Origin: Escherichia coli
GTDB taxonomy: Bacteria > Pseudomonadota > Gammaproteobacteria > Enterobacterales > Enterobacteriaceae
Strand: one strand, 5' to 3'
Assembly (NCBI RefSeq): GCF_017348835.2
Contig: NZ_CP072315.1
DNA length: 64,000 bases
The notes beneath the pieces were generated by a model. The model was not told where the DNA came from, searched no databases, and saw only the letters and a program-made list of their open reading frames with translations. This document shows, in pieces, positions 21,811 to 25,837 of the stretch. The position numbers and the translations under genes are program-made. How positions within the stretch are numbered: position 1 is the first letter of the stretch; the number at the start of each line of letters is the position of its first letter.

Positions 21811-22377
21811 TTATTCGTTTTGTTTCTGTTCGTTATACTGCTCAAACCAGAAGACGACCGGTTTTACTACAATATGAAGCAAACCAAAACGTTCTGCGGT
21901 ACGGAAATTCACGCTATATGCGCGAGCCCGTTCAACCTGTTTGGTAATTTCATTTCTCATTCCTTCAACACTAAAAGCTCCTTTAAAAAGGTTGCAGGGA
22001 GCGCATGATGGAAATAAGTTTTCTATTGCATGCAGTTCAGGGTGCATAACCTTACCCGTACTTCGGGCAACATGAGTTACGCCGCTGCCGACCGGGGCTC
22101 TCACCAGTTCAAAGTCGCGTCGAACAGGCTCAACATGATCGGCATGCCACCCTTTTTCAGGAAGCTTGCAACCACAATAGGCACAACGCCCCCCAAATTT
22201 CATTCGCAGCTCAGCTCGCTGTATTTTAGAGATCTTATTTTTAGGTTTTGAGAACCTACCATCAGGTGATTCCGCTTTGGATAACTTTGCTGAGGGCTCA
22301 GGTAACTCAACTAAATTCCCGTTGATATTTATCACCTTGACCATATCATTTTCCGCCTTTACTAATCTCACGGGCAC
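21811..22377 (-). CDS. HNH endonuclease-domain protein
   Basis: CAYCG ... HADHVEP ... N ... SCAPCN arrangement typical of HNH nucleases. Confidence 0.6.
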   Translation of the reverse strand: MPVRLVKAENDMVKVININGNLVELPEPSAKLSKAESPDGRFSKPKNKISKIQRAELRMKFGGRCAYCGCKLPEKGWHADHVEPVRRDFELVRAPVGSGVTHVARSTGKVMHPELHAIENLFPSCAPCNLFKGAFSVEGMRNEITKQVERARAYSVNFRTAERFGLLHIVVKPVVFWFEQYNEQKQNE

Positions 22378-22404
22378 AGGAGCTGGCTTAAGTAACCGCT
22401 GAAG

Positions 22405-22593
22405 TTAACAGCCACTGACTGCCTCTACCCAGACCTTCTGTTTATACTCAATAGGCCACCCCTCTTTATCTGCCCGGATGACGCAATCATTTACCGTGGT
22501 GCGTGACCGGATACGAACATCAAGCGGAAGCGAATCGTTATCCACACGAGCCTGTGCCTCATTTAAAATGCGTAAAAACATCTCTTTGGTCAT
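22405..22593 (-). CDS. hypothetical small protein
   Basis: 62-aa ORF overlapping the upstream gene by 4 bp. Confidence 0.35.
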   Translation of the reverse strand: MTKEMFLRILNEAQARVDNDSLPLDVRIRSRTTVNDCVIRADKEGWPIEYKQKVWVEAVSGC

Positions 22594-22901
22594 TCAGATA
22601 CCCCCTCAACTTTGCGAATTTTGATCAGATGAGGGCGATTCAGTTTACAAAGTTGTTCTGTCGCTTCATCAATCGAATTGAACCGATGAGCCTCTTCGAT
22701 ATTTAAAGTCCAGTATTTCGCTTTCCCTTCTCCCAGATCGGACTCAAAATAATTTCGCTTTACATCCATTTTTTTAGGCCTGCCATTTATCTTGACGACA
22801 TTATGTCTGTCATCAAAAAGAAATTCGTCCCCCTCAAAAGTGATTAATACAAATGGCCCCTCAGGCTTGGAAGTCCGGGGACTTCCCATTTTCAAAGTCA
22901 T
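22590..22901 (-). CDS. hypothetical protein
   Basis: 103-aa ORF. Confidence 0.4.
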   Translation of the reverse strand: MTLKMGSPRTSKPEGPFVLITFEGDEFLFDDRHNVVKINGRPKKMDVKRNYFESDLGEGKAKYWTLNIEEAHRFNSIDEATEQLCKLNRPHLIKIRKVEGVSE

Positions 22902-22963
22902 ACTTCAGCCTCTCGATAGAACTCATGAAACCTCAAATTAAAATGGACTCACACCACACTGAT

Positions 22964-23203
22964 TCAGTATTCCTCCTGAACCCCATTAGGCTCTGTTGTG
23001 ATTTCATATTTAATACCGCCAGGTGCTCCCACAGCGTCCGCGACCGACTCACACAGCAGCGAGAGATCGTTGAGGGTCATTGGGTGTTCAATGTCCAGCG
23101 TGAAGAGTTTCCCGGCTTGCTTGGCGGCTGTCTTGTCAGCATGTTCAGCATTAAAAAGGTATACGGTGTGTTTTTCCTGAGCGGGGGTATTTTGATTTTG
23201 CAT
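22964..23203 (-). CDS. small protein, paralog of 17775..17999
   Basis: Same conserved block as 17775..17999; palindromic motif about 130 bp upstream. Confidence 0.5.
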   Translation of the reverse strand: MQNQNTPAQEKHTVYLFNAEHADKTAAKQAGKLFTLDIEHPMTLNDLSLLCESVADAVGAPGGIKYEITTEPNGVQEEY

Positions 23204-23335
23204 TGATGATCCTTTTGTTTAGTTCCCCGATTCCGGGGGTGAGTGAATTAATTTAAATTTATATTTGTCTGGTTTAATTAGAACGTTTCCAGGCTATGCG
23301 TAAACAGGTAATGCAAAGGCTGTATCAACAGGATT

Positions 23336-23346
23336 AAAGTTACTTT
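23336..23346. promoter_or_regulatory. AAAGTWACTTT palindromic motif copy
   Basis: aaagttacttt; between the PAPS-reductase-like gene and the gene starting at 23203. Confidence 0.5.
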
Positions 23347-23452
23347 TCTGGATGCAGCAACGCTTGGACATGATGTCCACATTACATCACGATCAAAGCT
23401 AAGTTTTTTTTGTATAACCCCTTCATTTTCGTGTGTTTCGCGTTTCAGACGC

Positions 23453-25837
23453 TTATACGACCTGCCTGACCATCCTCATCAGAAGGCGGTTTAACAGTCC
23501 TTTCGCTGTCGGGCGATTGCTATCGACATAGTAAAAACCTGTTTTGGTCGTACCGTGAGCACTGCTCAGCACCCTCAGTTCCCAGATAACGTCACGGATA
23601 ACGCCGCCATTTTCTGGCTTAAGGCATTCAGATAAATGGCGCATGAAACGAGCTCTTACGGCACGGTAATAGCGGAACTCCTCTGGCTGGTTAGTATTTT
23701 CTTTCACCCGGAGTCGCTGGTTACACAGAGTTAGAACTGCATCCATCATTCCCGCCTTCAGCTTCGCCTGGATCGCACCTTGTTGCTGTTCCCTCTCACC
23801 TTCGAGTAACGTTAAGATTCTTTCTCCGAGTGCCGTCTTGTTGTGTACGTGCAACTGTACACAGGCAGCTACGCATGCCCAGAATCTGAACTTTTTTATC
23901 TGTCCACGCAATTTCCGGGCTACAACCTGACGGTATGCAGTATCGCTGAGTATTTTAAAACGCCGACTGGCAACCAGCTCTGGAAGCGACACTCTTTCGC
24001 CTATCCCCAGGCGGGAAAAGGTTTGTCCCCGTTGTGCGAGACGATGATAGACAGCGCCCTTCCCTTTTGAAATTCGGACCGCGCCATAACGAAGAAGATA
24101 CTGAGCAGCAGTCGTTGGAGTAAACTCACCGTCAGCGATGCTCTGGCGTAACCCGTCGTATTCATGCCAGATAATCCAGGACGCCGTATCTTCTTCAACA
24201 GTCAGCTCATCCTCTTCCTCGAATGCCACGACGACAGAACTGCTCTCTCCGGTCTTTAGGCTACGTGAAGCCCTGGGGTCAGCCTGCCCGTCAAAATAGG
24301 TCATCAGCGGCAACGTATCAGTCAGTCCATCATAAGCTGTACCGAACCGGCCTCCGGGCAGTTTCATCCAGAGTGGAGCTGGCATTGGTGTACGGGCCAC
24401 AGGCAGCATGTCAGGCTCATCCTCAAGAAGGTCCAGATCGGCCTCTTCCCAGACTCTGCGATAGATCTCAATTGCCCGAAACGGGCGAGGGTTGAAACAG
24501 TGCAACGACCAGAGGAAATCAACGTGGATCACGTTTGCTTCATGTACAAGCCGAAATTGTGGCTCAGCCATACGACGGTTATAAGCCGTATCGTCCACCT
24601 CGCCGGAAAGTAGCTTTCTGCGATGCTTTGCCGCACGTCTGGCTTCAACATAATCAAGGCTGCAACAGACATGAAAAAGACGTTCAGTCAGGGACGAAGA
24701 AAAGATATTGGGTTGAAGACGCACATACCCGCCTTCGAACACTTTACGACCGATATAATCCCGCAGGCTCCAGTCGTACTGGATCTTAGAAAGAAATCGC
24801 TGAAGACGACTTAGGCCTGCCTGATAACCATATTTCTCAGGGTCAGTGCGAAGGAGCGTTTCCATTGAATGGTCAACCCCTACGGCTGTGCAAAGCGAGC
24901 ACCCATATCTAGCCCCACAAGCTGAGGTTCGCGTGGGTTTCTCCGGCGACCAGATACACTCTCCGGTGGCGTCTTTATAAAGCGTTGCCAGGCTGAAGTT
25001 ATCCGGCATAAAGCTTGGTAAAGGGAAGCGGGATTCGGAACCACAGGCCATTAGAAAAGACCAGATGTCCTGAGTGCGCCACTCCTTTACTGGATAGAGT
25101 TCACCACCGTGCTCAGTCAGGGTTACTTTCCTCGCCTGCCCTCCCATTTTGAGGATATTTCCGGCCCTTCGGGCACTTTCATCATCCCTGGAGCCCAGCA
25201 TCAGGCATACCCTGCTTCGTACGGATGCCGGGGCGTTTTTTAGATAACGAGCTTTGGCCTTGCGCAGGGGGGCGATTTTGTAGTCGGTTGAGCACTGACG
25301 GGTTGAAGAATTAGTCCAGGTCGGAAGTCCACGTCCAGTCAGAATGCGGCCTACCCAGCTCTGCGTAAGAGACGGTTGGGCGACAAGGACTGTGACCGGT
25401 AGCTGGTGTTCAGCAATGAACATTCTAAGCTGGTTGAGAACCTGTGAAGCCTGATAGTGCATCTCAGGGTTTTCGATCAGCGTATCGGACATCTGAATGA
25501 AATGATGTTCGCTGATATTTGTGCCGTTACGTACTGCCCTGATCAATGCCATCAGAAATAGGTGAAGAAGAGAATGGGAGTCTTTACCGCCACTGTATCC
25601 CACGCACATCGTCCATCCGTCCGTAATAGCCTGATAAATAGCAGATGTGGCTGACGTGACCAGAGAAGAAAGACTCACAGTCTCCTTTTCATCGGTATAG
25701 TTCAGATCGGCATCGGTTGTCAGGGTCTCCCAAACATCAGCCCATTTATCATGTTTCAAAATGGCAGCATTAGCCGCCTCAGGAAAAATAACTTCTGAGG
25801 GTAATTCAAGGAATGAGTCACTTTTTTCAATAAACAT
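23453..25837 (-). CDS. PAPS-reductase-like (PP-loop ATP pyrophosphatase fold) protein with long C-terminal extension
   Basis: N-terminal VGYSGGKDS PP-loop motif and a Cys cluster (CGARYGCSLC) resembling DndC/IbrA-type enzymes; 794 aa is much longer than those. Confidence 0.65.
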   Translation of the reverse strand: MFIEKSDSFLELPSEVIFPEAANAAILKHDKWADVWETLTTDADLNYTDEKETVSLSSLVTSATSAIYQAITDGWTMCVGYSGGKDSHSLLHLFLMALIRAVRNGTNISEHHFIQMSDTLIENPEMHYQASQVLNQLRMFIAEHQLPVTVLVAQPSLTQSWVGRILTGRGLPTWTNSSTRQCSTDYKIAPLRKAKARYLKNAPASVRSRVCLMLGSRDDESARRAGNILKMGGQARKVTLTEHGGELYPVKEWRTQDIWSFLMACGSESRFPLPSFMPDNFSLATLYKDATGECIWSPEKPTRTSACGARYGCSLCTAVGVDHSMETLLRTDPEKYGYQAGLSRLQRFLSKIQYDWSLRDYIGRKVFEGGYVRLQPNIFSSSLTERLFHVCCSLDYVEARRAAKHRRKLLSGEVDDTAYNRRMAEPQFRLVHEANVIHVDFLWSLHCFNPRPFRAIEIYRRVWEEADLDLLEDEPDMLPVARTPMPAPLWMKLPGGRFGTAYDGLTDTLPLMTYFDGQADPRASRSLKTGESSSVVVAFEEEDELTVEEDTASWIIWHEYDGLRQSIADGEFTPTTAAQYLLRYGAVRISKGKGAVYHRLAQRGQTFSRLGIGERVSLPELVASRRFKILSDTAYRQVVARKLRGQIKKFRFWACVAACVQLHVHNKTALGERILTLLEGEREQQQGAIQAKLKAGMMDAVLTLCNQRLRVKENTNQPEEFRYYRAVRARFMRHLSECLKPENGGVIRDVIWELRVLSSAHGTTKTGFYYVDSNRPTAKGLLNRLLMRMVRQVV

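What the first reader, a model, noticed from the sequence alone, without database searches (positions are those of the whole stretch)
21811..25837. PAPS-reductase-like PP-loop protein of 794 aa near an HNH endonuclease: candidate DNA-modification module
The ORF at 23453..25837 carries the SGGKDS PP-loop signature and a Cys cluster recalling DndC (phosphorothioation) or IbrA-type enzymes, but is about twice their size with an uncharacterised ~450-aa C-terminal region. Downstream in the same orientation lie a small paralog-family gene, two tiny ORFs and an HNH endonuclease. A nucleotide-activating enzyme next to a nuclease among anti-restriction-like genes is a plausible DNA modification or anti-defence system that I cannot match to a described one.
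Basis: inference. Interest (0 to 1): 0.7.

Follow-up and report, generated by a model that had tools for sequence, protein, structure and literature searches.

The report
Stand-alone DndC-like enzyme on IncHI2 plasmid
The large gene is a lone, plasmid-borne relative of the DNA-phosphorothioation enzyme DndC with an extra domain of its own, conserved on thousands of resistance plasmids and probably used to protect incoming plasmid DNA, while the neighbouring HNH nuclease is an unrelated phage-like insertion.

Summary
Window 23453..25837 (-) encodes a 794-aa protein with SGGKDS and a DndC-type Cys cluster. A small paralog-family gene, two tiny ORFs and an HNH gene lie downstream.

The window is IncHI2 plasmid backbone. 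The protein is a paralog of DndC, not an ortholog. Profile alignment to a true DndC gives 99.9% probability over residues 43-472, with all five invariant Cys aligned. It still scores far below the curated DndC cut-offs. No dndD or dndE lies near it at any of about 27 loci.

Residues ~473-645 form a family-specific domain with no Pfam, PDB or other AlphaFold-database relatives. Residues 646-794 are a variable helical tail. The family has about 450 clusters at 50% identity. It sits in runs of small same-strand genes with orphan methyltransferases on conjugative elements (IncHI1, IncHI2, IncC and others). Homologs occur in 2,658 PLSDB plasmids.

The HNH cassette is absent from IncHI1 pHCM1 and from every other lineage examined outside the IncHI group. 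Its closest relatives are phage HNH genes. The proposed enzyme-plus-nuclease module is therefore not supported.

About 29% of family members, but not this one, end in a QLxLF motif resembling the beta-clamp-binding motif.

Most likely function: an Fe-S, ATP-dependent sulfurtransferase acting on plasmid DNA as an establishment or anti-restriction factor. This function is inferred, not shown.

The parts
23453..25837 (-). Gene for the 794-aa stand-alone DndC-like protein (whole ORF, stop codon included)
   Evidence: ORF listing. 100% DNA identity to annotated IncHI2 plasmids. Homolog family.
24788..25660 (-). Residues 60-350: PP-loop ATP-pyrophosphatase (PAPS_reduct/DndC) domain with the Fe-S Cys cluster
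25577..25594 (-). SGGKDS PP-loop motif (residues 82-87)
   Evidence: Translation. S82, G84, K85, D86 and S87 are invariant in alignment A1; position 83 varies (G/S/F). Motif S.GKDS present in 208/215 full-length relatives.
24890..24958 (-). Cys cluster C294...C307..C313..C316 (CIWS...ACGARYGCSLC); C182 lies at 25292-25294
   Evidence: Translations. All five Cys are invariant in A1 and aligned with Cys of a true DndC.
24422..24787 (-). Residues 351-472: beta-hairpin plus helices, still alignable with DndC
   Evidence: hhalign covers query 43-472 against DndC 14-428. PADLOC DndC model PDLC02661 covers 63-474. AF2 secondary structure.
23903..24421 (-). Residues 473-645: family-specific domain with no detectable relatives outside the family
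23456..23902 (-). Residues 646-794: variable, basic helical-bundle tail found only in the gammaproteobacterial plasmid clade; no clamp-binding-like motif at its end
   Evidence: Alignment A1. AF2 helices 632-793. Charge table. Motif scan.
22964..23203 (-). 79-aa gene of a small paralog family (other copies at 17775..17999 and 17535..17735); a conserved neighbour only within IncHI plasmids
   Evidence: tblastn and phmmer.
22405..22901 (-). Two small ORFs (103 aa at 22590..22901 and 62 aa at 22405..22593, overlapping by 4 nt), belonging with the HNH cassette
   Evidence: The 103-aa ORF hits phrog_30913 at 2.8e-38. It travels with the HNH gene in L017 and is absent from pHCM1.
21811..22377 (-). 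HNH endonuclease gene (188-aa ORF; RefSeq starts it 11 codons later). A variably present, phage-related insertion, not a partner of the DndC-like gene
   Evidence: phrog_2118 at 1.7e-55. 58-64% identity to phage HNH genes. Absent from pHCM1, IncC and all other lineages. Zinc-finger HNH motifs intact.
26010..26458 (-). Remnants (62-aa and 49-aa ORFs) of a 160-170-aa gene that lies directly upstream of the DndC-like gene in related plasmids; a likely pseudogene here
   Evidence: Neighbour clustering: L010 5312-5824, L016 9323-9835 and L017 4966-5448 match both window fragments.

Best explanation
The 794-aa protein belongs to a distinct family of stand-alone DndC paralogs carried by conjugative plasmids and ICEs. 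Shown: it keeps the PP-loop ATP-pyrophosphatase fold and every Cys that is invariant in the family and aligned with Cys of DndC. After the DndC-like part it has a conserved ~170-aa family-specific domain and, in this clade, a helical tail. It is encoded alone, inside a long same-strand run of small genes that includes orphan DNA methyltransferases. The HNH gene beside it is an unrelated phage-type insertion. Inferred: it is an active [4Fe-4S]-dependent, ATP-dependent sulfurtransferase that takes sulfur from the host cysteine desulfurase IscS. Its substrate is inferred to be plasmid DNA, with a phosphorothioate-type or other sulfur modification laid down around the time the incoming strand is replicated. 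The benefit would be establishment in new hosts: escape from phosphorothioate-based or other restriction. This parallels the orphan methyltransferases encoded around it.
Confidence: 0.45

Rival explanations
1. It does not modify DNA by itself. It acts only through a resident host phosphorothioation system. It could be a surrogate or poison DndC subunit that plugs into host IscS-DndD-DndE. It could equally be a decoy that sequesters them or the restriction complex. Either way the incoming plasmid would escape DndFGH- or SspE-type restriction.
For: DndC works in an IscS-DndC-DndD-DndE complex (PMC6435447). DndD and DndE are absent from all loci. A phage PAPS-domain fusion gave escape specifically from Dnd. 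One plasmid lineage pairs the gene with a DndB-like DGQHR protein, which in dnd operons is the regulator.
Against: Identity to a true DndC is only about 26%. The DndC C-terminal 115 residues are replaced by an unrelated conserved domain. Dnd systems are sporadic, whereas the gene is fixed in very broad plasmid lineages. Clamp-binding-like motifs in relatives point to direct action on DNA.
Confidence: 0.2
2. One reading: the PP-loop enzyme and the HNH endonuclease form one modification-plus-nuclease (R-M-like) module.
For: Same strand, within 1.1 kb, no strong terminator between them. Both are present in IncHI2 plasmids and in one IncHI-type relative, L017.
Against: The HNH gene and the 103-aa ORF are absent from the otherwise syntenic pHCM1 block and from IncC, the Citrobacter, Burkholderia, Pseudomonas and Cupriavidus plasmids, and the environmental loci. 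The closest HNH relatives are in phages. The HNH protein has no modification-reading domain.
Confidence: 0.03
3. It thiolates RNA (tRNA, like TtcA, TtuA or NcsA) or acts as an IbrA-like co-regulator with a ParB/DndB-like partner. It would then reprogram host or plasmid gene expression rather than mark DNA.
Against: The best matches by far are to DndC. There is no DndB/ParB-like gene in the window or at most loci. The context is DNA methylases and DNA-metabolism genes. Clamp-binding-like tails are found in relatives.
Confidence: 0.1
4. It is a metabolic PAPS/APS reductase (CysH-like) for sulfate assimilation, as the database name suggests.
Against: No CysH-type ECG[LI]H motif. No hit to any family named as a sulfate-assimilation PAPS/APS reductase in the NCBIfam scan. 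No sulfur-assimilation neighbours at any locus. It has the DndC-type Cys cluster instead.
Confidence: 0.01
5. It is a decaying or functionless passenger gene in this plasmid.
For: IS903B-truncated allele in pEC-IMPQ, with similar partial matches in other IncHI2 records. The gene directly upstream is a pseudogene in the window.
Against: Full-length ORF with intact motifs, 100% identical across hundreds of plasmids. Conserved at 45-75% identity across IncHI1, IncHI2 and IncC with invariant catalytic residues.
Confidence: 0.05

Closest known systems
DndC / DptC, the sulfurtransferase of the DndABCDE DNA-phosphorothioation system (TIGR03183 / NF005316)
   Same: PP-loop SGGKDS. All five family-invariant Cys align with Cys of a true DndC. 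Homology over about 430 residues at hhalign probability 99.9%.
   Different: About 26% identity. Scores 118 and 130 bits against cut-offs of 290 and 536. Never next to dndD, dndE or dndFGH. The DndC C-terminus is replaced by a family-specific ~170-aa domain plus tail. Encoded on conjugative elements as a solo gene.
Vibrio phage PAPS-domain::Dam methyltransferase fusion that helps overcome a host Dnd system (Piel et al., bioRxiv 10.1101/2021.05.05.442762)
   Same: A mobile-element-encoded PAPS-reductase/DndC-like domain without the other Dnd proteins, in an anti-defence setting. The window protein matches a PADLOC model named 'Type II methyltransferase' (PDLC03333, 544 positions) over its residues 65-334 at 7.5e-23. 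I read that model as a PAPS-domain::methyltransferase fusion; this was not checked.
   Different: That protein is 479 aa and fused to a methylase. This one is 794 aa with a different C-terminal domain, has no methylase, and is plasmid-borne.
SspD and BrxP (PAPS-reductase components of Ssp and BREX type 4 phosphorothioation systems)
   Same: Same superfamily and presumed chemistry.
   Different: Only a weak BrxP hit (4.7e-6). Those proteins work with SspB/DUF4007 and SspC/BrxC, which are absent here.
IbrA/IbrB-type pairs (PAPS-reductase-like protein plus ParB/DndB-like protein)
   Same: A DndC-like protein outside a dnd operon. One plasmid lineage has a DGQHR (DndB-like) gene two genes upstream.
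   Different: No such partner in the window or at most loci. No family named IbrA was hit. The resemblance is recalled from memory, not tested with an IbrA model.
Orphan DNA methyltransferases of plasmid leading and establishment regions (Samuel & Burstein 2024, PMC11541004)
   Same: Same genomic setting (same-strand arrays of small genes on conjugative plasmids) and the same proposed logic: self-protective marking of incoming DNA.
   Different: Different chemistry and fold. That study does not mention PAPS reductase or Dnd. Leading-region position is not established for IncHI2.

Membership tests
DndC (DNA phosphorothioation sulfurtransferase) | PP-loop motif SGGKDS | tested here: met
   Residues 82-87. 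S82, G84, K85, D86 and S87 invariant in A1.
DndC (DNA phosphorothioation sulfurtransferase) | Conserved Cys residues that carry the [4Fe-4S] cluster or persulfide | tested here: met
   C182, C294, C307, C313 and C316 align with Cys of a true DndC (L015:5893-7524) in hhalign. Which of them are the cluster ligands is from memory, not tested.
DndC (DNA phosphorothioation sulfurtransferase) | Reaches the curated equivalog cut-off of TIGR03183 (290.4 bits) or NF005316 (536 bits) | tested here: not met
   117.6 and 129.9 bits. The control true DndC scores 529 and 695 bits.
DndC (DNA phosphorothioation sulfurtransferase) | Encoded in a dnd operon next to dndD and dndE (with or without dndB, dndA, dndFGH) | tested here: not met
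   phmmer with DndB, DndD and DndE from L015 finds DndD and DndE only in the control locus, across about 27 family loci with up to 10 kb of flank. None is annotated in the 100 kb of pAMSH1 inspected.
DndC (DNA phosphorothioation sulfurtransferase) | ATP pyrophosphatase activity dependent on a [4Fe-4S] cluster; phosphorothioate in DNA | not testable with these tools
   Needs biochemistry and LC-MS/MS.
Assimilatory PAPS/APS reductase (CysH) | C-terminal ECG[LI]H catalytic motif and sulfate-assimilation gene context | tested here: not met
   Motif absent. No hit to a family named as a sulfate-assimilation PAPS/APS reductase. Neighbours are plasmid genes.
IbrA/IbrB-like pair | Adjacent ParB/DndB-like partner gene | tested here: not met
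   tblastn of a DGQHR protein against the window gives nothing below E=0.6. A partner is present only in the Citrobacter plasmid lineage.
   An HNH homolog lies near the gene only in IncHI2 and L017. It is absent from pHCM1 and all other loci.
Leading-region anti-defence gene of conjugative plasmids | Lies in the first DNA to enter the recipient, oriented for early expression | tested here: inconclusive
   mobI and the MobH relaxase lie at 32.2-36.6 kb of pAMSH1 and the gene at 62.2-64.6 kb, transcribed towards them. Transfer polarity at IncHI oriT was not found in the literature searched.
Beta-clamp-binding proteins | QL[SD]LF-type motif in a terminal tail | tested here: not met
   The window protein ends ...LLMRMVRQVV; its only match (QLRMF, residue 136) lies inside the folded domain. 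32 of 109 relatives do carry the motif at the C-terminus.

The most novel reading that the evidence does not exclude
The family is a single-polypeptide DNA sulfur-modification enzyme that works without DndD or DndE. Its family-specific domain would handle DNA. Many members would be tethered to the replication sliding clamp by a C-terminal QLxLF motif, so that conjugative elements thio-mark their own newly synthesised DNA on entry. This would be a replication-coupled backbone or base modification used as an anti-restriction device.
Probability: 0.2. Interest if true: 0.85.

Novelty: new variant of a known kind. Interest (0 to 1): 0.55.

Why it matters
IncHI2, IncHI1 and IncC plasmids are major vehicles of multidrug resistance. 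About 3.7% of the plasmids in PLSDB (2,658 of 72,556) carry a homolog, yet nothing is known about what it does. If it marks or shields incoming DNA, it is a host-range determinant of these plasmids. It would also be a new counter-defence principle alongside orphan methylases. If it installs sulfur in DNA without DndD and DndE, it would change the accepted minimal requirements for phosphorothioation and provide a compact enzyme for making such DNA. The clamp-binding-like tails in relatives make the idea directly testable.

Tried and rejected
- Pfam on the C-terminal 440 residues and on 25 homologs: no family, even at E<=10.
- PDB sequence search with profiles of the whole protein and of the C-terminal part: only PP-loop enzymes for the N-terminus, nothing for the C-terminus.
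- Foldseek against AFDB50 with the C-terminal model: the 50 hits listed are all uncharacterised or PAPS-reductase-annotated proteins.
The narrower A3 gave 16 loci.
- tblastn for a DndB-like gene in the window: none.
- Rfam on the whole window: no match.
- Promoter, terminator and repeat scans around the gene: nothing above shuffled expectation.
- Charge analysis of the segments: an acidic 473-545 stretch and a basic 546-645 stretch in the plasmid clade only, too weak to support either DNA mimicry or DNA binding.
- tblastn of the 103-aa ORF against phage genomes: no match, despite its PHROG hit.
- Literature searches for this gene in IncHI or IncC plasmids or in leading regions: no paper mentions it.
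- The polarity of IncHI transfer could not be established.
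Full report
**What is there**

The ORF at 23453..25837 on the minus strand is real and encodes 794 aa. The 6.5 kb around it are 100% identical to many 200-280-kb plasmids of E. coli, Salmonella and Enterobacter. These type as IncHI2A, MOBH relaxase, MPF_F. There the gene is annotated 'phosphoadenosine phosphosulfate reductase family protein'. SGGKDS is residues 82-87. The Cys cluster is C294...C307..C313..C316, with C182 further upstream. Four genes follow downstream on the same strand:
- a 79-aa gene with two paralogs about 5 kb away
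- a 103-aa and a 62-aa ORF that overlap by 4 nt
- an intact zinc-finger HNH endonuclease gene

The only correction concerns size. A true DndC is 543 aa, and homology to it runs to about residue 472. The protein is therefore about 1.5 times DndC, with about 320 unshared residues.

**What the protein is**

Pfam sees only a weak PAPS_reduct domain. The NCBIfam and PADLOC DndC models match at 1e-34 to 4e-38. The scores are 118 and 130 bits, far below the curated cut-offs of 290 and 536.

I found a genuine dndBCDE operon in a Salmonella Infantis contig. Its DndC passes both cut-offs. A profile of 28 family members aligns to it with 99.9% probability over residues 43-472. All five family-invariant Cys face Cys in DndC. 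Beyond residue 472 the two proteins are unrelated.

The C-terminal 440 residues were modelled separately (pLDDT 88.9). They have:
- no Pfam match
- no PDB sequence match
- in AFDB50, only uncharacterised or PAPS-reductase-annotated proteins among the 50 hits listed

A profile of this region finds 454 cluster representatives among 1.84 billion proteins. Nearly all full-length ones carry the region after a ~300-residue N-terminal part.

The protein is therefore a distinct paralog family. It has a DndC-like catalytic half, a family-specific domain (~473-645) and, in the gammaproteobacterial plasmid clade, a variable helical tail (646-794).

**Where it lives**

tblastn finds homologs in 2,658 of 72,556 PLSDB plasmids, of which 2,062 are predicted conjugative. 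I inspected about 27 loci:
- IncHI2 and IncHI1 pHCM1
- an IncC-like plasmid
- ~85-kb Citrobacter plasmids
- Burkholderia, Cupriavidus and Pseudomonas plasmids
- environmental ICE-like contigs

 At every locus the gene sits in a run of small same-strand genes. These often include orphan Dcm or N6 methyltransferases, DUF3085, RadC/JAB, Fic, a primase, a T4CP (type IV coupling protein) or a polyvalent protein.

phmmer with DndB, DndD and DndE from the control operon finds DndD and DndE at none of these loci. It finds a DndB-like DGQHR protein only in the Citrobacter lineage. All-against-all clustering of neighbours shows no gene conserved beyond closely related backbones. No sulfur-assimilation genes occur nearby, and the CysH motif is absent.

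**The HNH gene**

In IncHI1 pHCM1 the block is syntenic: three upstream genes, the DndC-like gene, the 79-aa gene, a DUF6012 fragment, DUF957 and DUF3085. The 103-aa ORF, the 62-aa ORF and the HNH gene are missing. They occur with the gene only in IncHI2 and in one Pseudocitrobacter IncHI-type contig.

The HNH protein hits a phage HNH family at 1.7e-55. It is 58-64% identical to HNH genes of Salmonella, Edwardsiella and Klebsiella phages. It is best read as a selfish or accessory insertion. The enzyme-plus-nuclease module is not supported.

**Clues to mechanism**

Motif conservation argues for a working enzyme rather than a mere decoy.

While comparing C-termini I noticed two features in the family. 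Of 109 full-length representatives, 32 carry Q[LMFIV]x[LMIF][FLW] (QLSLF, QLDLF, QLDMF, QMDLF and similar) within the last 15 residues. The rate in the rest of the same proteins predicts 0.45. In addition, 34 of 109 end in -AA against 0.8% expected, often as QLxLFAA. To my knowledge QL[SD]LF is the consensus beta-sliding-clamp-binding motif. This points to action on DNA at sites of synthesis.

The window protein and its IncHI relatives lack this motif. They end instead in a basic helical tail. The one true DndC examined also lacks it.

Precedent exists for the general idea. Two phage-specific genes, one of them a PAPS-domain::Dam fusion, let a Vibrio phage escape Dnd. A 2026 preprint lists MGE-borne PAPS reductases as anti-defence candidates. 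No paper searched mentions this plasmid family.

**Points against, or still open**

- Canonical phosphorothioation needs DndD and DndE.
- The IncC TnSeq study named five other genes as needed for entry into V. cholerae O395 and did not list this homolog.
- In pEC-IMPQ the gene is cut by IS903B. tblastn suggests that other IncHI2 records likewise keep only residues 312-794. The gene is therefore conditionally dispensable.
- It lies about 30 kb from mobI and the relaxase and is transcribed towards them. I could not establish the polarity of IncHI transfer. 'Leading region' remains unproven.

**Verdict**

Shown: the gene is a solo DndC paralog with its own C-terminal domain, widespread on conjugative resistance plasmids. 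It is not metabolic, not part of a dnd operon, and not functionally tied to the HNH gene.

Inferred (about 45%): it is an Fe-S, ATP-dependent sulfurtransferase that acts on plasmid DNA as an establishment or anti-restriction factor. The main rival (about 20%) is that it works only through or against a host phosphorothioation system.

It is a new variant of a known kind, of moderate interest, and it has a clear experimental path.

Noticed in passing
Family-wide (proteins P0121-P0259); not in the window protein (C-terminus encoded at window 23456-23500): 29% of full-length family representatives end in a QLxLF-type motif (32/109 against 0.45 expected) that matches the beta-clamp-binding consensus. 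31% end in -AA (0.8% expected), often as QLxLFAA, which also recalls ssrA-type ClpXP degrons. The IncHI clade lacks both.
   Followed up: partly
window 26010-26458 (-): The 670-bp 'gap' upstream of the DndC-like gene holds two fragments (62 aa and 49 aa) of a 160-170-aa gene that is intact in pHCM1, Pseudocitrobacter faecalis and P. vendiensis. It is a likely pseudogene here.
   Followed up: partly
L032 (pEC-IMPQ, NC_012556) 3472-6452: In pEC-IMPQ the DndC-like gene is interrupted by IS903B, leaving residues 312-794 annotated as a hypothetical protein. PLSDB tblastn shows other IncHI2 records with the same partial match; the number was not counted.
   Followed up: partly
L003 8443-9558 and L033 4226-5296: In ~85-100-kb Citrobacter plasmids a DGQHR-domain (DndB-like) protein and a 90-aa gene sit directly upstream of the 669-aa homolog. 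This gives a DndB-like/DndC-like pair without DndD or DndE.
   Followed up: partly
window 17535-17735, 17775-17999, 22964-23203 (-): Three paralogous 66-79-aa genes are scattered in the same-strand array. pHCM1 also has three copies. Function unknown.
   Followed up: no
window 29020-30270 (-), 39070-39831 (+), 55829-56641 (+): Three DNA methyltransferase genes without annotated restriction partners (a site-specific MTase, a 'methyltransferase' and a Dam-family MTase) lie in the window, plus a DUF4942 gene at about 52357-54048. This is consistent with an anti-restriction-rich backbone.
   Followed up: no
window 35274-37664 (-), 41285-43705 (+), 47899-50355 (-): Three ~800-aa Ig-like-domain proteins flank repHI2 (45703-46791). 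A Pseudomonas megaplasmid that carries a family homolog also has Ig-like and DUF6012 genes nearby (L013).
   Followed up: no
window 13567-15193: An IS150 copy is inserted immediately next to a hok-family toxin gene inside the small-gene array.
   Followed up: no
window 16347-16628 (-): PLSDB carries an RGI call of 'Brucella suis mprF, 100% identity' on a 93-aa hypothetical protein. This is almost certainly an annotation artefact.
   Followed up: no
L035 (metagenome scaffold) 1-18289: A clamp-motif-bearing homolog (ending ...QLSLFAA) lies in a same-strand array with a Dcm-type methylase, an Mrr_N-N6/N4 methylase, thymidylate synthase and a dUTPase. This is a DNA-metabolism and modification neighbourhood.
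   Followed up: no
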